In this document: positions 56,809-64,000 of the stretch, in pieces
Layout of the letters: each line of letters starts with the position of its first letter
How positions within the stretch are numbered: position 1 is the stretch's first letter
From: Phycisphaeraceae bacterium
Lineage (GTDB): Bacteria > Planctomycetota > Phycisphaerae > Phycisphaerales > Phycisphaeraceae
Assembly (NCBI GenBank): GCA_963674705.1
Contig: OY771506.1
Coordinates: 96,001-160,000 of the forward strand
Direction: 5' to 3'
DNA length: 64,000 nt
The notes under the pieces: model-generated
The model's database searches: none
What the model saw: only the letters and a program-made list of their open reading frames with translations
What the model was told of the DNA's origin: nothing
Position numbers and translations under genes: made by a program

Positions 56809-57237
56809 TCCTCAGCAAGCAACCCCCGTGGCCGTGAAAAACTGGTCACGGGGCGCGCGACCCGGCGGGTCGCGGCTAAAAACGATGGATTCGTAGGTCC
56901 GGGCCTGCCCGGACATGGTGCGGTGAGAGGTGTGACACATCGGAAACGAAAGGAACCCGGCCCTCACCCCGGCCCTCTCCCGAGGGGAGAGGGAGTGAAT
57001 CGAATAGATATCGCTTTGGATAATGAATCAATAGGTGTAAATAGTGATGGCGTTCATCCCCTCTCCCCTTGGGAGAGGGCAAGGGTGAGGGCCTGGTGGA
57101 TTGTGTAACCGGAAAACAAGAGCACTGGTACTACTCAAACAGAGATACGATTGAAAACCCTGGTTTTAATTCTTAATCCGTGTTCATCTGTGTTCATCCG
57201 TGACTAAATAATGATGCATAACAGCAAAGGAAGTGAG

Positions 57238-58581
57238 ATGATTAAATCGACAGTATTGAGCGCGTTGATCGGGTTGGCGCTGGTCAGTCCCGCGCATGCG
57301 ATGACCAACATTCTGGTGAACCCGGGATTTGAAGACACGGACGCGGTGCCGGACGGTCAGTTTGGCGACGGTTGGGGCGCCTGGGGTGCTGCAAGTTTTA
57401 ATGACTTCTGGAGCGGCAACGGGCATGCGAGCCTGTACCCTGACACCGTCGGCAACATCGGCGGTGTGTATCAGTTGGCGATCCCCGGTACGGCGGGCAC
57501 AACGTATCAGTTCGACCTGCTGGACACGCGGATCGAAGCGAGCTTCGATGCGTCGCTCCGCTTTGGCTTGGAGTATTACGCGGCCGACGACGCGACGAAA
57601 CTCGGTGAGACGATCGTTGAGATCGACGCGGCGACAAGGCTTGGGCTGTCGAATGTCGGCGGCGACGGCGCGGTGAACGCGGCGGTGTTCAGCATGCAAG
57701 GGACGGCAGTGGTTGGGACGGTGTATGTCAGGCCAGTCATTTCGTTTGATGATGTGAACCCGGCGTATATCCAGCAGAGCCAGGCGAACGTGTTCGTGTT
57801 CGATTCGTACATGGCGGAGGTCCCCGCGGCGGGCGGCGAGCTTGCGAAGAACCCGGGATTCGATGATGAGAACGGCGACGGCAACCTCGGCGATCGTTGG
57901 GGCGCCTATGGCAACACCGGCTTCAATGCGTTCTTCGGCGATAACCCGCACGCCAGCTTCTTTGCAGATTACGTCGGTAACAGCGGCGGCATCTACCAGC
58001 AGGCGATGCTCGGCACGCCCGGCACGGAGTACACCTTCGAGCTGACCAACGTGCGCATCGAGGACAACTGGGACGCCGACCTGCTGTTCGGGTTCGAGTT
58101 CTACGGCGACGACGACTTTACGAAGATCGGCGAGCTGCTGGTGACCGCGGACACGAGTGTGACCGGTGATGGGCTGTTTTTCGAGATGAGCGCGACCGCG
58201 GTTGCGGGCACGAAGTACATCCGGCCGGTGATCCTGTTTGATAACGTGAATCCCGCATATATCGGCGAGAGCCAGGCGAACTTGTTTATCTTCACCACGT
58301 CGGTGAGTGAAACCGTGAACGCACTGCCGGGCGATCTGAACGGCGATGGGTTTGTCGGGCTTGACGACCTTGACATCATCCTCAGCGCGTGGAACCAGAA
58401 CGTCCCGCCGGCCAACAGCGCGGCCGACCCGAGCGGCGATGGGTTTGTCGGATTGGATGACCTAGACATCGTGCTGAATCATTGGAATGAAGGCACGCCG
58501 CCTGCAAGCGTGGTGCCCGAGCCGGGGACGCTGGCGCTGCTAGGATTGATGGGCGCGGCAGGTTTGCGTCGGCGGAGTTAG
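57238..58581 (+). CDS. PEP-CTERM protein with two tandem CBM-like (NPGF) modules and a dockerin-like domain
   Basis: Two copies of the module found in 56191-56808, then GDLNGDGFVGLDDLD / ADPSGDGFVGLDDLD and VPEP-TM-RRR. Confidence 0.87.
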   Translation: MIKSTVLSALIGLALVSPAHAMTNILVNPGFEDTDAVPDGQFGDGWGAWGAASFNDFWSGNGHASLYPDTVGNIGGVYQLAIPGTAGTTYQFDLLDTRIEASFDASLRFGLEYYAADDATKLGETIVEIDAATRLGLSNVGGDGAVNAAVFSMQGTAVVGTVYVRPVISFDDVNPAYIQQSQANVFVFDSYMAEVPAAGGELAKNPGFDDENGDGNLGDRWGAYGNTGFNAFFGDNPHASFFADYVGNSGGIYQQAMLGTPGTEYTFELTNVRIEDNWDADLLFGFEFYGDDDFTKIGELLVTADTSVTGDGLFFEMSATAVAGTKYIRPVILFDNVNPAYIGESQANLFIFTTSVSETVNALPGDLNGDGFVGLDDLDIILSAWNQNVPPANSAADPSGDGFVGLDDLDIVLNHWNEGTPPASVVPEPGTLALLGLMGAAGLRRRS

Positions 58582-58596
58582 ACAGGAAGAATTTAG

Positions 58597-58670
58597 CCAC
58601 GGATGGACACGGATGAACACAGATAAGAAATGAGTTTTCTTTATCCGTGTTTATCAGTGTTCATCGGTGG
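58597..58670. repeat. REP-like family C inverted repeat (CCACGGATGGACACGGATGAACAC ... ATCCGTGTTTATCAGTGTTCATCGGTGG)
   Basis: Imperfect long hairpin of ~10-bp units. A half copy lies at ~57176-57203. Confidence 0.7.
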
Positions 58671-58757
58671 TTTATAGAATGCATAGGGAACTCGGCCCTC
58701 ACCCCGGCCCTCTCCCGAGGGGAGAGGGAGTTAAGAAATGCGTTTCGCAGGGATCAT

Positions 58758-60455
58758 ATGTTTAAGAAGTACCAGGTCATGGCGGTAGCAACGGCGGTAA
58801 CACTACTGGCTTCGGCTCATCGGGCCGACGCGGCGGTTCAGGTCTGGCTGACAAAAGGCAATCAGACAAAACTGCTGTCGCAGGAAAGTGATCTGTCTTT
58901 CTCGGCGGGGCCGGGTTCGTATTCGACGAAGGTGAACGTCGATGCTTCGACAACATACCAGACGATGTCGGGCTTCGGCGCGGCGATGACAGATTCGTCG
59001 GCGTGGCTGTTGCAGAACGAGTTGAGCACATCGCAGCGCGACGCGTTGATGGAGCAGTTGTTCTCCCCTACGACGGGGATCGGCATCAGCTACCTGCGTG
59101 TGCCGGTCGGGGCGTCGGACCTGTCGCTGTATCCGTATACCTATAACGATCAATCCTGGGGGCAGACGGATGTGGATCAGTCGGACTTTTCGATCGCGCA
59201 TGATGTGCCTTACATCATCCCGTCGCTGTTGCAGGCGAAGTCGATCAACCCGCAGCTTGGCATGATGGCTTCGCCCTGGAGTGCGCCGGCGTGGATGAAG
59301 ACAAATAACTCGCTGATCGGCGGGTCACTTAAGAGCGAATACTACGAGAGCTACGCGGATTACCTGGTGAAGTTCTTCCAGCGGTATCAGGCACACGGTC
59401 TGAGTTTCGACACGATGACGGTGCAGAACGAACCCTTGCACGGAGGCAATCATCCGTCGATGACGATGAGCACCTATCAGCAGAGCACGTTCATCGGCGA
59501 TCACTTTGGGCCGGCGATGGACGCGGCGGGGATCGACACGAAGATCATCGCGTATGACCATAACTGGGATAACTGGAATTACCCGGTCGTGGTGATGAAC
59601 GACCCCGAAGCGGGGCAGTACGTGAGCGGCGCGGCGTTTCACGGTTACGGCGGGACGGTCGATCAGCAGTCGAACTTCCACGACTTCTTCCCGGATGCGG
59701 GGATTTACTTCTCCGAAATCTCCGGTGGGACCTGGGCGACCAACTTCTCCGACAATTTGATGTGGAACATCGAGAACATCATCATCGGTTCGACGCGCAA
59801 CTGGGCGAAGACGGCGATCTTCTGGAACCTGGCGCTGGATGAAAACAACGGGCCTTACCTTGACGGCGGGTGCAGCGGCTGCCGAGGTGTGGTGACGATC
59901 GATACATCGGACGGCAGCGTTGAGTACAACGAAGAGTATTACAGCATCGCGCATGCGAGTAAGTTCGTACAGCCGGGCGCGGTGCGGATCGATTCGGATA
60001 CGTTTGATAACGTGATCGAGACGGTGGCGTTTATGAACCCGGACGGGTCGCGCGTGTTGATCGCGCTGAACCCGACGAATTCATCGCGCTGGTTTGATGT
60101 GGTTGAAGAAGGCGAATCGTTTTCGTATCGGTTGACTTCTAAGTCGGTGGCGACGTTCGTCTGGCCGGGCGTTGTGCCGGTGGCAGGTGATATTGATGGG
60201 GATGGATTCGTAGGCTTGAGCGATCTGGATATTGTGTTAAGCAACTGGAACCAGAGTGTTCCGCCGGGCGATGCAAGTGCGGATTTGTCAGGCCCGAGCG
60301 GTGACCCGGACGGGTTTGTCGGGCTGGACGATCTGGATGTGGTGCTGGCCAACTGGAACGCCGGCACGCCTGCGGGCGACAGCACGAACATCCCCGAACC
60401 GACGGCGTTTATGTGTATGGGATTGCTTGGCGCTGGGTTGATGCGCCGGGGGTGA
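58758..60455 (+). CDS. GH30 glycoside hydrolase (GH30_3 endo-beta-1,6-glucanase-like) with dockerin-like domain and PEP-CTERM
   Basis: YQTMSGFGAAMTDSSA, LRVPVGASD, ASPWSAPAWMK, acid/base QNEP, YDHNWD, nucleophile FSE, WNLALD, CRGVVTI; dockerin; IPEP-TM-RR. Confidence 0.87.
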   Translation: MFKKYQVMAVATAVTLLASAHRADAAVQVWLTKGNQTKLLSQESDLSFSAGPGSYSTKVNVDASTTYQTMSGFGAAMTDSSAWLLQNELSTSQRDALMEQLFSPTTGIGISYLRVPVGASDLSLYPYTYNDQSWGQTDVDQSDFSIAHDVPYIIPSLLQAKSINPQLGMMASPWSAPAWMKTNNSLIGGSLKSEYYESYADYLVKFFQRYQAHGLSFDTMTVQNEPLHGGNHPSMTMSTYQQSTFIGDHFGPAMDAAGIDTKIIAYDHNWDNWNYPVVVMNDPEAGQYVSGAAFHGYGGTVDQQSNFHDFFPDAGIYFSEISGGTWATNFSDNLMWNIENIIIGSTRNWAKTAIFWNLALDENNGPYLDGGCSGCRGVVTIDTSDGSVEYNEEYYSIAHASKFVQPGAVRIDSDTFDNVIETVAFMNPDGSRVLIALNPTNSSRWFDVVEEGESFSYRLTSKSVATFVWPGVVPVAGDIDGDGFVGLSDLDIVLSNWNQSVPPGDASADLSGPSGDPDGFVGLDDLDVVLANWNAGTPAGDSTNIPEPTAFMCMGLLGAGLMRRG

Positions 60456-60534: not shown

Positions 60535-61554
60535 TTATTCGATGGCTTTTCGCAGCATGTCACGCCATGCGAGGCCGTCTTCGGTGAGGTCGATGCCTTG
60601 CGGCCGATCGGGCGCGTAACGCGCGACCATGTTCAGCGGGATGGGCGGCATCTGTCGCGGATGGATGGGGCGCGTGAGCATCCACTTCGGATCGCCGGGC
60701 GTGGCGAAGACGGTGTTGCAGACGAGGCCGACGCCGTGACCGTCTCGGACATAGTTGAGGATGGTCAGCCAGCCACCGGTCTGGATCAACAGTTCGGGCT
60801 TGGATGAAGAAGCGTATCGCTGCAAGGCTTCATCAAAGTCCCGGCGGGTGCGCGAGTCGGGCTCGGGCGTGAGTAAGGGGAATTCGCAGACCTGTTTGAG
60901 CGTGATCGGTTTCTTCTTGGGAAGCTGTTTGAAGTCCTTCGCCCATGGGCTGGTCTTGGCGCAGACGAGGCTGTAGCCGAAGCGCATGAGTTCTTCGACG
61001 TAGAGCTCGGTTCGCGCGATCTCGTTGACTTCCTGTTCGGAGTAGCTGACCAGCGCCAGATCGAGCGCACCGCTTGCGACGCCCTCGATGGGCTGCGGGC
61101 CGCGCATGGTGCTGATGCGGATCGGGCTGTCGGGGTGCGACTTGCGGAAGAGTTTGAGTGCGAGGCGGACCAGGTCGGACGTGGTGGATTGCCCGCAGGC
61201 GAAGCGGACGACCGGGTGCTGCACAGGCTTGGTGAGTGTGTAGCCGTAGAGCGTGTGGTAGCGTTCGATCAGGTCGCGTGCACCGGGCAGGACGCGCTTG
61301 CCTTCTTCGGTGAGTTTCCATGTCTTGCCTTCACGCACGATCCACGGCCGCTTGAGCACCTCGCCGGGCTGGTTGAGGTGGGCCATGCGTTTGGACATGC
61401 TTGGTTGATTGATGTCTAACGCGCGCGCAGCCTGGCCTGCATCTCCGTCGTGCTGGATAAGCGTGACGAAGGTTTCGAGTAGTTCGATCGATAGTGTGGT
61501 TGACCTTGGCACTTCGTTTTTCGTGTTACCGTTGTCGTTGAAGTCGGATTCCAT
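60535..61554 (-). CDS. LysR-family transcriptional regulator
   Basis: N-terminal HTH (LETFVTL..AARALDINQPSMSKRM, KLTEEG) and substrate domain (VASGALDLAL, YVRDGHGVGLV). Confidence 0.82.
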   Translation of the reverse strand: MESDFNDNGNTKNEVPRSTTLSIELLETFVTLIQHDGDAGQAARALDINQPSMSKRMAHLNQPGEVLKRPWIVREGKTWKLTEEGKRVLPGARDLIERYHTLYGYTLTKPVQHPVVRFACGQSTTSDLVRLALKLFRKSHPDSPIRISTMRGPQPIEGVASGALDLALVSYSEQEVNEIARTELYVEELMRFGYSLVCAKTSPWAKDFKQLPKKKPITLKQVCEFPLLTPEPDSRTRRDFDEALQRYASSSKPELLIQTGGWLTILNYVRDGHGVGLVCNTVFATPGDPKWMLTRPIHPRQMPPIPLNMVARYAPDRPQGIDLTEDGLAWRDMLRKAIE

Positions 61555-63216
61555 AATTCTATCGTCTCTTATGAGTATTGCTCTATAGAATGCTTGCAAG
61601 TGATAACCATGACGGGCCCTTTAGGGCCTATTCATCACGGATTTACGCGGTTTTAATGGTTTTCAGGGCGGTATTTCCCGGGCCGAGGGCGCAAAGATGC
61701 TGTGTCACCGAACACCCGGGCCGTACGGATACCCTCTGCGCTGCCATCATCCACCCACACATGGCATAACCGTGACGGACGGGCGAGCGGTTGTTCTTAA
61801 CTTCTACAACTGAGTTATGTTGAGGCGAGAATCATCGAGCGGCATCCACAGCGTTGCCGGAACCTGCACACCCGACACGAGCACTGACGGCCTCCAACCG
61901 GACGGCTTTCGCCGACAGGGGCAGGCCGTGCTTCTGAAACACGTATGCGCCTCAAGCTATCTATTGAGGTTCAACTGGTATTGCGATTCATGGTTAAGCT
62001 CCTTGTTGCTTGCACTGATCACGTAAGGCGGCGCTATTGACCGCATACGGATAGGCCGTTGCATAGCGAGGCTATGGCGTTGTTCTGATGATCGCGGATC
62101 TGGGTTGAGGTGATCGGCAAGCCGGGCATGCGGCATGCCGGCATTTTGACGGGGCGCAGCCCGGCCCGGCAGGGCTTGCCGGGGTGGATGTGTCTATCGT
62201 TATTAAGAATTACCTTGTGCGCCCGTTGATCGCTTATCCGCAAGCCGCGGGAGCTATTGGCGCTGTGTTGTTTCGCAATCGTCTGAAGTACCGTTTCAAG
62301 TTTCCGGCCGGTCTGAACACAGCCGCCTCCCATCCCTGCCCTGCCCGTCATCCTGACCCCCTGCCGCTTGTGTATGTTCATCCATACTCATGACGCAAGG
62401 GCTTGAGTCTACAACGTATATTCTCGAAATCAATGGTGTAGTTTAATAATTCTTATATTTTTAGATTGGAGTTCTGGCCCGACGGCGGCCGGATGTGCTT
62501 ATACGCATGATATCACGCATGTGCGCGTCATGGAAGGTGTTCTTGTTGAATAAAAAAATAATTGCGTATGCTCCGCCGCGGAACACATGGAACAATACCG
62601 TGGCTGGTACATCGATGACATCGCAAGACTCTTAAACAAACGAAAGCAATGCCTGTTAACACAAAATGCGTACGTCGAAATGTGCCGGACGTCCCACCAA
62701 ACGGGACACATCCGTGGTGGCTTGATTAATCGCGCACGAATACACCCGCTTTTTACCGTGTTTTTTCGGCATTGCCGGGTTCGGCAACAATTCCCAGTTC
62801 TTCCCAACGCACAAACCGACAACTACAACAATGCCGGGAACATCGTTCACGCGATTCATGACAGCGCGTGGCTTTTTCAAAACCGTGCGAGCATGTATCG
62901 TCTCTCTCGGCACAAAACAAACAGCACGACATACGAGGTTGCTGCATATATGCGAAATCATTCCGATCCGGCAGGAAATGCTATTGATCTTCATGCCTGC
63001 GTGTCGTAGCGTGGGTTGTGTTACGCGCGTCGGCCAACAGACGCAATCATATCCAGCGTCGACACGGCAGCGGCGACGGGGGGCGGGGAAGAAAATAAAT
63101 TCCGTTTTAGAATTAACGGTTGATTTCATTCTATATCAGTTTAACATGGGGTCGGCCCGTCGGGCGTCCGACGGGGTGACAGCACAAACCGGCAGAGCCG
63201 GAAAGGAGAGTGGATC

Positions 63217-63396
63217 ATGGTGGCTTGCGTAGAAAGCAAACGGAAGGCGATGGATGCGGTGTTGGCGGAGCGGCGGGAGCGTACCGGGGGAGGTGGGCGA
63301 CTGGTCGCCGACACCGGGCGTGATGTGATCGGGCGGACGCTGTCCAAGGACAGTGAGTCGTTTGTCAGCCATTCGCGTCAAGAGAGTGGAGAGTAG
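63217..63396 (+). CDS. Pup/UBact-like small protein modifier (59 aa, not in the ORF track)
   Basis: Manual translation MVACVESKRKAMDAVLAERRERTGGGGRLVADTGRDVIGRTLSKDSESFVSHSRQESGE*. RBS AAAGGAGAG lies 6 nt upstream. The C-terminus resembles Pup (AEDFVRAYVQKGGQ/E) and UBact (RQRxGE), and the stop is 2 nt before a PafA/Dop-family gene. Confidence 0.78.
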   Translation: MVACVESKRKAMDAVLAERRERTGGGGRLVADTGRDVIGRTLSKDSESFVSHSRQESGE

Positions 63397-63398
63397 CC

Positions 63399-64000
63399 AT
63401 GCACGGGTGTATGGGGAACGAGACTGAGTACGCGATCGCCCCCATGCCCCAGTCGTTGCCGGCGGATAGCACGCGCGCCGATCGTTCGCGACGGCGACGT
63501 GCAGCCGGCGGCGGCTCGGGTGGGGCCGTTCCATTGTTAGAAGAAGTCATCGAGCAGGTCAGTAGTTCGACACGCGCCCGGCTCAAGGCGGCCACGGGCT
63601 ATGCGGAGCGGTCCGGCTACTTTCTGACCAACGGCTCACGTGCGTATCGTGACGGCGCGCATGTTGAGTACGCCACGCCCGAAGTCACCGACCCGGCTTC
63701 ACTGGTGTGTCACGTGCTCGCCGGCGAGCGGATGGTGCTGGCGGGTTTGTTACAGGCAAAGAAGGTGCATCGCAACTGGCGCGAGGTGAGGCTCTACAAA
63801 ACCAATCAGAGCTACGGTGACCGCCCCGCTTCTTTCGGGTGTCATGAGAATTACAGCTACAGCGTGGATGTGTTTCGGTTATACGATCCGCTTCAGCCGT
63901 TTCTGTGTTCGCGGGTGATCTATACCGGGGCCGGGGGTTACGATGTGAGGCACCCGTTGCGGTTTTCGCTTTCGCCCCGGGTAAGTTTTCTCAGAAGCGC
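63399..64000 (+). CDS. PafA/Dop (Pup ligase/deamidase) family protein, 5' part, truncated by the window end (not in the ORF track)
   Basis: Manual translation shows MGNETEYAI, FLTNGSRAYRDGAHVEYATPE, HVLAGE, LYKTN, SFGCHENY, PFLCSRVIYTGAGG and FSLSPR, the ordered motif series of PafA/Dop. The frame stays open to 64000. Confidence 0.9.
   Translation, partial: MHGCMGNETEYAIAPMPQSLPADSTRADRSRRRRAAGGGSGGAVPLLEEVIEQVSSSTRARLKAATGYAERSGYFLTNGSRAYRDGAHVEYATPEVTDPASLVCHVLAGERMVLAGLLQAKKVHRNWREVRLYKTNQSYGDRPASFGCHENYSYSVDVFRLYDPLQPFLCSRVIYTGAGGYDVRHPLRFSLSPRVSFLRS

What the first reader, a model, noticed from the sequence alone, without database searches (positions are those of the whole stretch)
63217..64000. 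Hidden Pup-like tag and PafA-family ligase pair in a probable planctomycete, both missed by the ORF track
Seen: a 59-aa, charged, Gly-rich ORF with a strong RBS, ending ...DSESFVSHSRQESGE. It is followed 2 nt later by an ORF with the PafA/Dop motifs (GxETEY, FLxNGxRxYxD..H.EYATPE, GCHENY, TGAG). Known: actinobacterial pupylation joins the C-terminal Glu of Pup to target lysines via PafA, and UBact is a related tag in some Gram-negative lineages. Inference: this is a non-actinobacterial, ubiquitin-like conjugation operon. Its tag looks like a hybrid, with a Pup-like E.FV helix and a UBact-like RQxSGE end. The encoded terminal Glu would need no Dop deamidation. The pair starts an operon in an accessory region, so it may be a divergent system with a role other than housekeeping proteasome targeting.
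Basis: partly seen in the sequence, partly recalled or inferred. Interest (0 to 1): 0.88.

Follow-up and report, generated by a model that had tools for sequence, protein, structure and literature searches.

The report
Stand-alone Pup-like tag and TPR ligase
These two intact, conserved genes encode a small Pup-type protein tag and a PafA-family enzyme with an added TPR repeat domain that likely attaches the tag to chosen proteins; no tag-removing enzyme, matching unfolding motor or proteasome was found in this genome, so the tag would likely act as a one-way switch rather than a disposal label.

Summary
The 59-codon ORF ending RQESGE is a divergent Pup homologue, not a Pup/UBact hybrid. The next ORF runs on intact past the window as an 854-aa PafA/Dop-family enzyme with a C-terminal TPR-like domain. 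The pair is the whole unit: this single-contig, 97%-complete Phycisphaerales genome has no second PafA/Dop gene, no ARC/Mpa and no 20S proteasome. Trees, the missing Dop-loop and gene order put the enzyme on the ligase side. A tag-ligase model scored 0.85 against 0.00 for controls, possibly from likeness to solved Pup complexes. Both genes are under purifying selection. The same pair, always with a Glu-ending tag and one rare LysR regulator nearby, occurs in 4 of 401 genomes of the order, twice beside conflict-type genes. Its relatives mostly sit in a ten-gene Ubl/E1/E2/RING/JAB + ARC/Dop/Pup/PafA operon, mentioned once in print (Kaur 2020) and found earlier by this scan in other genomes. Proteasome-less Pup-ligase pairs in planctomycetes are also known (Iyer 2008; a membrane-anchored type). 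New here is the soluble, TPR-fused form without eraser or unfoldase. Activity, targets and role are untested. New variant of a known kind; interest 0.5.

The parts
63203..63208 (+). Shine-Dalgarno-like AAGGAG, 8 nt before the tag's ATG
   Evidence: sequence; identical in the close relative G004
63217..63396 (+). 59-aa Pup-like tag ending Gly-Glu; member of the tag family with consensus I.RALS.DSE.FL...RQ.GG[QE]
   Evidence: predicted to bind the ligase through residues 12-59
63399..64000 (+). 5' part (first 200 codons) of an 854-aa PafA/Dop-family enzyme. The gene continues beyond the window to genome position 161963 (window-equivalent 65963). Residues ~1-540 are the carboxylate-amine ligase domain, ~556-854 an all-helical TPR-like domain ending DEHGDYWWGL
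60535..61599 (-). Divergently oriented, atypical LysR-family regulator that travels with this ligase family; probable regulator of the pair (inferred)
   Evidence: Pfam HTH_1 + LysR_substrate; at E<=1e-25 in 5 of 401 genomes of the order, each time within a few kb of a ligase of this family
61600..63202 (.). Spacer between LysR and tag, probably holding the divergent promoters; its ORFs (e.g. 62587-63009) are probably not genes
   Evidence: no Pfam match for 62587-63006; 1-2 nt indels at 62560-63107 in a related strain's contig, none among the listed rows inside the tag or ligase, 8 rows not shown; no sigma-70-like promoter found

Best explanation
The two genes form a stand-alone tagging unit in which the PafA-family enzyme likely uses ATP to join the terminal glutamate of the 59-residue Pup-like tag to lysines of a few target proteins, likely chosen through its C-terminal TPR-like domain, and the mark would likely change what the target does rather than send it to a proteasome. 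Shown: both frames are intact and under purifying selection; the family's catalytic residues are present; the enzyme is not in the Dop clade and lacks the Dop-loop; no Dop, ARC/Mpa or 20S gene was found in the genome. Predicted: the tag lies in the Pup groove with its C-terminus at the active site. Inferred from PafA chemistry: gamma-glutamyl phosphate, then an isopeptide bond. Inferred from context, and the weakest step: the unit is switched on through the neighbouring LysR and serves a stress or conflict response, in G017 and G529 possibly by modifying the NACHT-TPR or RelA/SpoT-TPR-SLOG proteins encoded right behind it. With no eraser encoded, the mark would be permanent.
For: Catalytic set E8, E10, R81, Y83, D85, H88, E90, H149, E150, R213, R224, H226, R487, W511 present; most are invariant or nearly so in 132 clade members. 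Careful tree: the upstream operon paralogue (class A) groups with Dop at 100/100, the window's clade (class B) stands outside at 100/100. Holding the 4 stand-alone enzymes together with Dop+A is rejected (p-AU 0.0001); B+Dop gave p-AU 0.043 under a simpler model. Residues between GxExE and the NG motif: class B 42-55 (68 in the window enzyme, through a low-complexity Arg/Gly insert), PafA 39-45, class A 62-113, Dop 70-95. PafA-type residues at Hecht's positions 7 (F75), 11 (G86), 13 (A92) and 46 (D510). In full operons the order is ARC, Dop-like, tag, class B, as arc-dop-pup-(prc)-pafA in the canonical operon L097. All 4 stand-alone tags end in Glu, against 21 of 67 tags that have a Dop-like gene upstream. 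Complex model 0.85, best of 3 controls 0.00, runs agree in at least 93% of contacts, partner pLDDT at least 80, interface includes E10, D85-H88, H149 and tag 49-59; the mark was reached by 116 of 157 solved and 2 of 215 mismatched pairs. One PF03136 gene, no ARC OB domain, only HslV among PF00227 matches; likewise one ligase and no ARC in G004, G017, G529. dN/dS 0.13 (ligase domain), 0.17 (C-terminal domain), 0.20 (tag). Conflict-type neighbours in G017 and G529.
Against: By plain similarity the enzyme is closer to Dop than to PafA (phmmer 2e-46 vs 1e-23; TIGR 198.6 vs 193.5 bits, both far under the cut-offs; Foldseek ranks Dop first). It is Dop-like at Hecht's positions 10, 12, 15 and 25. Its alpha-loop (SFLRSAVGGDSR) matches neither enzyme and lacks the two threonines whose loss slows PafA. 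Class B does not form one clade with canonical PafA. The four Glu-ending tags belong to one clade, so they may be a single event. The complex score may come from likeness to solved Pup-PafA/Dop structures. The window's own locus has no conflict gene beside it and the genome lacks homologues of G017's neighbours; PADLOC has no match for tag, ligase or LysR; no relative was found in viral contigs. The TPR-like domain is not special to the stand-alone form: 14 of the 18 class B ORFs (of 86) that carry it lie outside that subclade. No target is identified.
Confidence: 0.55

Rival explanations
1. Same ligation, but the tag is a degradation label read by a housekeeping protease or unfoldase of the host (ClpCP-type, HslUV, Lon or FtsH) in place of ARC and the 20S particle.
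For: Pup-type tags are disordered tails that unfoldases can engage (established knowledge). The genome has HslV and Clp- and FtsH-size AAA matches. 16 of 45 full operons carry a ClpA-D1-like gene beside class B. Kaur 2020 reads the coupled system as linked to target degradation.
Against: Pup is read by the ARC/Mpa coiled coil (established knowledge), and no ARC was found here. No protease gene lies beside any of the four stand-alone loci. Without Dop the tag could not be recycled.
Confidence: 0.15
2. The tag binds the enzyme but is not transferred to other proteins: it is a plug, chaperone or antitoxin-like partner, or the enzyme only tags itself or a small amine, and the TPR domain is the business end.
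For: The alpha-loop that contacts substrates in PafA is shortened and has lost its Thr-Thr pair in all 4 stand-alone enzymes. A tight two-gene unit of a small and a large partner with patchy distribution (4 of 401 genomes). The predicted interface is large, 163-185 contacts.
Against: Metal, nucleotide and acyl-phosphate residues are all kept. The terminal Gly-Glu is kept in all four tags. No toxin or effector domain was found in the ligase.
Confidence: 0.15
3. The pair is a leftover of the ten-gene operon that has lost its partners and is decaying.
For: Most relatives lie in the full operon (38 of 45 assessable loci carry E1, E2, X, Ubl, JAB and ARC). The same LysR sits beside a full operon in G639. 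Eight of nine other genomes of the genus gave no match.
Against: Intact frames in 4 genomes of 3 genera at 44-94% identity; dN/dS 0.07-0.20; a long, fully supported stem (100/100) for the stand-alone subclade. The tree does not show that it came from inside the operon-type ligases.
Confidence: 0.08
4. The enzyme is a Dop-like hydrolase (deamidase or depupylase) and not a ligase.
For: Higher raw similarity to Dop sequences and structures; Dop-type residues at 4 of Hecht's positions.
Against: No Dop-loop; rejected by the AU test; its operon-type relatives already have a Dop-like paralogue; a Glu-ending tag with no ligase in the genome would leave it without substrate.
Confidence: 0.07

Closest known systems
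Actinobacterial Pup-proteasome system (Mpa/ARC, Dop, Pup, PrcBA, PafA), including the proteasome-less form of Corynebacterium glutamicum
   Same: Homologous tag (family profile matches Pup chains first, E=8.7e-4) and homologous enzyme fold and active site. C. glutamicum shows that pupylation can be non-degradative (passage in PMC12288473).
   Different: No Dop, ARC or 20S gene found in the genome (C. glutamicum keeps ARC and Dop). The ligase is far below the PafA equivalog cut-off (193.5 of 551.3 bits), forms its own clade and has a ~310-aa TPR-like extension. The tag itself gives no match to the Pup models of Pfam or NCBIfam.
[quoted passage not shown]
   Same: Same tag family and same ligase clade. 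The same LysR lies beside one full operon (G639).
   Different: None of RING, E1, E2, X, Ubl, JAB, ARC, Dop-like or ClpA-D1-like orthologues was found in this genome. The stand-alone enzymes form their own subclade with an altered alpha-loop, and all their tags end in Glu.
Proteasome-less Pup + Pup ligase pairs of Rhodopirellula and Plesiocystis (Iyer, Burroughs, Aravind 2008, PMC2588565; parts 1-2 of 3 read), and the single-copy planctomycete PafA/Dop outgroup of Hecht et al. 2020 (PMC7947786; parts 1-4 of 8 read)
   Same: One tag and one ligase, no proteasome genes, in a planctomycete; a regulatory role was already proposed.
   Different: Those ligases carry inserted transmembrane segments. 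The single-copy planctomycete ligases with hydrophobic segments that I fetched form a separate clade (100/99) and their adjacent small ORFs end in e.g. VPGGGE and are not scored by my tag profile. The window enzyme is soluble and TPR-fused. I did not open Hecht's supplement, so which proteins form that outgroup is unchecked.
UBact (Lehmann et al. 2017; not seen, recalled; Pfam PF20513)
   Same: Small, charged, G[EQ]-ending modifier beside a PafA/Dop homologue in Gram-negative bacteria.
   Different: PF20513 has no match at the tag, and none of 67 family members matched a UBact model of Pfam or NCBIfam at E<=1. UBact operons are recalled to include proteasome subunits; none here.

Membership tests
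Pup (PF05639, TIGR03687) | 50-90 aa with C-terminal G[EQ], gene adjacent to a PafA-family gene (Iyer 2008) | tested here: met
   59 aa, ends GE, 2 nt before the ligase
Pup (PF05639, TIGR03687) | Score over the curated Pup model cut-off | tested here: not met
   No match for the tag; only 4 of 67 (Pfam) and 3 of 67 (NCBIfam) family members match at E<=1, best 2.9e-4
Pup (PF05639, TIGR03687) | Homology with Pup's two C-terminal helices at profile level | tested here: met
   Family profile: six best PDB matches are Pup, best E=8.7e-4; hhalign to the canonical Pup of L097: probability 88.7, E=2.6e-6
Pup (PF05639, TIGR03687) | Covalent attachment to lysines through the terminal Glu | not testable with these tools
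   Needs biochemistry
UBact (PF20513) | Match to the UBact model | tested here: not met
   No match at the tag at E<=1; 0 of 67 family members
PafA/Dop superfamily (PF03136) | Pup_ligase model over cut-off, GS-type fold, GhExE and the other catalytic motifs | tested here: met
   274.6 bits; Foldseek E 4e-20 to Dop, 3e-18 to PafA; residues. The strand-6 motif has H-x4-E, not H-x4-D
PafA proper (TIGR03686) | Score over the equivalog cut-off and one clade with PafA | tested here: not met
   193.5 of 551.3 bits; separate clade
PafA proper (TIGR03686) | No Dop-loop | tested here: met
   Class B linker 42-55 aa, 68 in the window enzyme through a low-complexity insert unlike the Dop-loop
PafA proper (TIGR03686) | PafA-type alpha-loop and uniquely conserved residues (Hecht 2020, Table 1) | tested here: inconclusive
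   PafA-type at positions 7, 11, 13, 46; Dop-type at 10, 12, 15, 25; neither at 9 and most of the alpha-loop; 3-6 not scored
Dop (TIGR03688) | Dop-loop, DHAH motif, FFEVEVGLETT alpha-loop, membership of the Dop clade | tested here: not met
   All absent; p-AU 0.0001; 198.6 of 492.3 bits
Pup-proteasome system | ARC/Mpa, Dop and 20S alpha/beta genes in the genome | tested here: not met
   (genome 96.6% complete, one contig)
Ubl+Pup coupled operon (Kaur 2020) | Tag and ligase belong to the operon's families | tested here: met
Ubl+Pup coupled operon (Kaur 2020) | E1, E2, RING, Ubl, JAB, ARC and Dop-like genes present | tested here: not met
   No orthologue in G000 with profiles built from the operons; only a weak ThiF-type match (62 bits, median 531) and generic AAA matches
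Membrane-anchored planctomycete Pup ligase (Iyer 2008) | Transmembrane insert after core strand 4 | tested here: not met
   No insert there in sequence or model; the proteins with hydrophobic segments form another clade
Anti-phage defence system | Match to known defence models, or protection against phage | tested here: inconclusive
   No PADLOC match for tag, ligase or LysR; conflict-type neighbours in 2 of 4 loci; protection not testable here

The most novel reading that the evidence does not exclude
A minimal, eraser-free pupylation switch used in bacterial immunity: the TPR-like domain recognises an invader's protein (or a neighbouring NLR-like or alarmone-synthetase effector) and the fused ligase tags it irreversibly, with no deamidase, unfoldase or protease needed. 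It would be the first Pup-chemistry counterpart of the Ubl-conjugating anti-phage systems and the first Pup ligase with a built-in, E3-like substrate-choosing domain.
Probability: 0.2. Interest if true: 0.8.

Novelty: new variant of a known kind. Interest (0 to 1): 0.5.

Why it matters
How PafA picks its hundreds of targets, and what pupylation does without a proteasome, are open questions. A natural two-gene unit with a ready Glu-ending tag, no eraser and a fused repeat domain can be tested in E. coli with two plasmids. It would show whether Pup chemistry can work as a stand-alone regulatory or defensive mark and whether a fused domain can give a Pup ligase specificity. It is also the simplest handle on the untested ten-gene Ubl+Pup operon, and a possible orthogonal tag-ligase pair for proximity labelling. 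The interest is tempered because the parent operon and proteasome-less planctomycete pairs are already on record and nothing here shows activity.

Tried and rejected
Pup/UBact hybrid: rejected. Operon continuing downstream: rejected. Frameshift or stop past the window: none. Proteasome elsewhere in the genome: the only PF00227 match is HslV. A first test of 'no Dop nearby means Glu-ending tag' gave Fisher p=1.0 but misfiled three loci whose Dop-like gene is adjacent. The corrected count is 21 E and 46 Q with a Dop-like gene upstream, 5 E and 5 Q without; of those ten, four lie under 1 kb from a contig end, one has a Dop-like fragment 0.9 kb upstream, one (L062, Q) lies in a genome with further unclassified PF03136 genes, and four are the stand-alone clade. 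I give no p-value, since the four are kin. TPR fusion as a mark of the stand-alone form: rejected. Descent of the stand-alone clade from the G639-type operon: not shown by the tree. An AU test of all B + Dop + A was not finished. A metagenome scan with the four stand-alone ligases returned 5 loci, none of that subclade by identity (31-37%). Viral contigs: no relative. ESM Atlas on residues 545-854: only unnamed or TPR clusters at 0.88-0.90, a lead at most. No RNA holder listed. Empty-site test: the downstream flanking gene is absent from 4 other genomes of the genus and the upstream one matches there only through its C-terminal repeat, so no insertion site could be defined. Promoter scan: 0 sites against 2.2 expected. 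Earlier notes of this scan on this sequence, place or stand-alone form: none.

Full report
1. The observation. The sequence is as described: AAGGAG at 63203-63208, a 59-codon ORF 63217-63396 ending RQESGE, two bases, then an ATG at 63399 with the PafA/Dop motifs. The window is G000:C1:96001-160000 of a 5.54-Mb single-contig genome, 96.6% complete. The second frame runs on unbroken to genome position 161963 and gives 854 aa. Pfam finds Pup_ligase (E=2.2e-81) and TPR_19 at 689-752 (26.3 bits, cut-off 25). An AlphaFold2 model (mean pLDDT 76.9, pTM 0.61, 11 sequences) shows the ligase fold, a poorly predicted linker at 540-556 and an all-helical domain behind it; Foldseek matches Dop and PafA first, then TPR proteins and glutamine-synthetase-fold enzymes. 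The tag alone matches nothing in Pfam or NCBIfam, and a GE ending is no rarity: 2 of 81 small ORFs abutting long ORFs in this genome have one.

2. The tag is real and is a Pup homologue. A scan of GTDB contigs found 171 relatives of the ligase and kept the best 80, from Acidobacteriota, Planctomycetota, Verrucomicrobiota, Gemmatimonadota and others. With the window's own locus and G017's I analysed 82 loci. A small ORF ending G[EQ] lay just before the ligase in 64 (46 Q, 18 E), with consensus I.RALS.DSE.FL...RQ.GG[QE]. A profile of these, built without the window's tag and its near-copy, ranks the window's tag first in the whole genome (E=2.3e-8, next 2.8) and finds 14 more tags. The six best PDB matches of a 67-row alignment are Pup chains (best E=8.7e-4); hhalign to a canonical Pup gives probability 88.7; 4 of 67 members touch Pfam Pup, none a UBact model, and PF20513 UBact has no match at the tag. 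Against G004 (94% identical ligase) dN/dS is 0.20 for the tag, 0.07 for its last 30 codons, 0.13 for the ligase domain and 0.17 for the C-terminal domain (one pair only).

3. The pair is the whole unit. A 14-bp hairpin lies 57 nt after the ligase stop (listed as a terminator for the opposite strand) and the next gene is convergent. The genome has one PF03136 gene, no ARC OB domain, no Prok-JAB, and its only PF00227 match is HslV. G004 (same genus), G017 (another genus) and G529 (another family of the order; the same genome as locus L015) have the same arrangement, one ligase gene each and no ARC; their completeness is 97, 95 and 85%. All four tags end in Glu. In a draw of 401 genomes of the order, 8 match the ligase at E<=1e-10; these four match over the whole length at 46-100%. 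In the phylum 38 of 401 genomes have some PF03136 gene.

4. The family's usual home. Most relatives lie in a conserved operon: wHTH regulator, FHA-like (my reading of the sequence) plus Prok-RING, ThiF-type E1, UQ_con E2, an unknown 310-aa protein, a Ubl ending near QPNIDAG, Prok-JAB, an ARC-type AAA ATPase, a first PafA/Dop homologue (class A), the tag, a second homologue (class B, the window's clade), often a ClpA-D1-like gene. Of 45 loci with class A, tag and 8.5 kb upstream, 38 carry E1, E2, X, Ubl, JAB and ARC (that filter missed three loci). The ATPases mostly end like HRYLxAA, without the C-terminal GQYL needed to open the 20S gate (PMC12288473 passages). Of 50 carrier genomes 39 have a PF00227 match; these are HslV at the same places, except a few extra matches: one true alpha/beta pair in G055, inside a separate canonical arc-dop-pup-prcB-prcA-pafA operon, two genes in clusters that I read as Anbu-type (label recalled), and weak unclassified ones. 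Profiles of the operon's other genes find no orthologue in G000. Kaur et al. [quoted passage not shown]

5. Ligase or Dop? Raw similarity leans to Dop. Trees do not. With 80 rows (quick) and 35 rows (careful, mixture model) class A joins Dop (97; 100/100) and class B is a separate clade (100; 100/100), outside Dop but not one clade with canonical PafA. Reference labels came from source names, from the canonical operon L097, or, for unnamed rows such as P0014, P0024 and P0034, from their place in the first tree. Forcing the four stand-alone enzymes into Dop+A is rejected (p-AU 0.0001); B+Dop gave 0.043 and A+B 0.078 under LG+G4. Class A has the Dop-loop-sized insert and a Dop-like alpha-loop; class B has neither (definitions from PMC7947786, parts 1-4 of 8 read, and PMC8599861, passages seen). 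On Hecht's diagnostic positions the window enzyme is mixed: PafA-type F75, G86, A92, D510; Dop-type A87, P94, F197 and no Val insertion; Hecht found that the Pro at the P94 position raised ligase activity in their mutant. Its alpha-loop is shortened and lacks the Thr-Thr pair that PafA needs for full speed; all four stand-alone enzymes share this, whereas most other class B enzymes keep Ser/Thr there. The catalytic set is intact; R81, Y83, D85, R213 and H226 align with Dop R90, Y92, D94, R227 and H241. Glu-ending tags are 4 of 4 in the stand-alone loci against 21 of 67 where a Dop-like gene lies upstream, which fits loss of the deamidase but may be one event. A complex model of tag and residues 1-540 scored 0.85, best of 3 controls 0.00, runs agreeing in at least 93% of contacts, partner pLDDT at least 80, the interface taking in E10, D85-H88, H149 and tag residues 49-59; 116 of 157 solved and 2 of 215 mismatched pairs reach that mark, and solved Pup-PafA/Dop complexes may have been recalled by the model. 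I put ligase activity on the tag at about 0.75.

6. Context and role. A divergent LysR (60535-61599, minus) is found at E<=1e-25 in only 5 of 401 genomes of the order: the four stand-alone carriers and G639, where it lies behind a full operon. It is therefore part of the module; that it controls the pair is inferred. In G017 the ligase is followed by DUF4062-NACHT-TPR and RelA/SpoT-TPR-SLOG-RyR-NUDIX genes, with NB-ARC-TPR and MoxR-like/vWA genes upstream; in G529 by RelA/SpoT-TPR-SLOG-RyR and a probable NUDIX gene. G000 and G004 have no such neighbours, G000 has no homologue of them, and G004 has a radical SAM gene behind the ligase. PADLOC has no model for tag, ligase or LysR. Patchy distribution and these neighbours suggest a conflict or stress role but do not show it. 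The C-terminal domain occurs in 18 of 86 class B ORFs and 37 of 150 clade representatives, so it is a family option and not the cause of the stand-alone state. The stand-alone subclade is fully supported, but whether it is reduced from the operon or an early simple form is unresolved.

7. What is known. Iyer et al. 2008 (PMC2588565, parts 1-2 of 3 read) reported Pup and one ligase without proteasome genes in Rhodopirellula and Plesiocystis, with a transmembrane insert. Single-copy planctomycete ligases with hydrophobic segments by a crude hydropathy count form a clade of their own, with differently ending tags. Hecht et al. 2020 used single-copy planctomycete homologues as outgroup. C. glutamicum uses pupylation without a proteasome but keeps ARC and Dop. 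Eight library searches showed no paper on a TPR-fused or stand-alone soluble Pup ligase; I saw listings and abstract starts for most, found nothing relevant in passages of PMC11354881, PMC3417536, PMC11601603, PMC8195603 or the held first part of PMC7203096, and did not see Lehmann 2017 (recalled), Burroughs 2011/2012 (seen in reference lists only) or any supplement. These may bear on novelty.

8. Verdict. A real, conserved, probably active Pup-type tag and ligase pair; works like PafA and Pup, is not a member of PafA, Dop or UBact by their models, and is a stripped, soluble, TPR-fused variant of a system already on record. Interest 0.5. Note on data: genome G056 (locus L035) is flagged unpublished; it is included in the count of 64 tags, the profiles and the 39-of-50 tally, and no conclusion depends on it.

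Noticed in passing
L150:9315-19988 and L151:1054-1785 (G639): A complete RING-E1-E2-X-Ubl-JAB-ARC-Dop-tag-ligase operon followed by the wHTH regulator and the same LysR (39% identical) that flanks the window's pair; the link between the stand-alone and full forms.
   Followed up: yes
L152:7436-10027 (G672): A single, very divergent 863-aa ligase of this family with a like C-terminus; my tag profile finds no tag in the 18-kb locus, and a 1301-aa unknown ORF overlaps its start. Neighbours look like restriction-modification or helicase genes (not annotated here).
   Followed up: partly
L039, L051, L053, L054, L064, L073, L074, L081, L084, L085 (Acidobacteriota): Class B ligases of 690-820 aa with another C-terminal extension and no tag directly upstream; some are extra copies beside a full operon, others lie inverted or displaced from Dop-like gene and tag.
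   Followed up: partly
class A genes, e.g. L040:9659-11533: The operon's Dop-like enzymes have GADxELGN in place of GxExEYG and YIDLdHLE in place of YVDHAHPE, on a very long branch; whether they still deamidate is open although 46 of 67 adjacent tags end in Gln.
   Followed up: partly
L097:5102-11874 and L034 (G055): One genome carries both a canonical arc-dop-pup-prcB-prcA-pafA operon and, elsewhere, the Ubl+Pup operon.
   Followed up: partly
L104-L127 (Planctomycetota): Single-copy ligases with hydrophobic inserts are preceded by small ORFs ending like VPGGGE or VPAGGE, a second unlisted Pup-type tag family.
   Followed up: partly
L012:3205-6231 and L015:12674-15683: RelA/SpoT-TPR-SLOG-RyR protein with fused (G017) or apparently separate (G529) NUDIX domain, close behind the stand-alone ligase in both genomes.
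   Followed up: partly
L012:13984-15903: 639-aa ORF just upstream of the G017 tag, same strand, with no Pfam or PADLOC match and no homologue in G000.
   Followed up: partly
L011:12943-13905 (G004): A radical SAM gene directly behind the ligase in G004, absent at that place in G000.
   Followed up: partly
L094:2715-7064, L095:1984-6032: Proteasome-family gene between an alpha-E/ATP-grasp-like pair and a transglutaminase-like gene in G017 and G046, an Anbu-type cluster by recall; unlinked to the ligase.
   Followed up: no
window 57211-60455: Exported proteins ending in a shared ~90-aa repeat and PEP-CTERM-like tail; the repeat matches 24-149 places in each of five genomes of the genus.
   Followed up: no
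G000:C1 near 5,245,000, minus strand (outside the window): Another small ORF with an RBS ending TIREAGE abuts a long ORF; it is not among the best matches of the tag profile and is probably chance.
   Followed up: no
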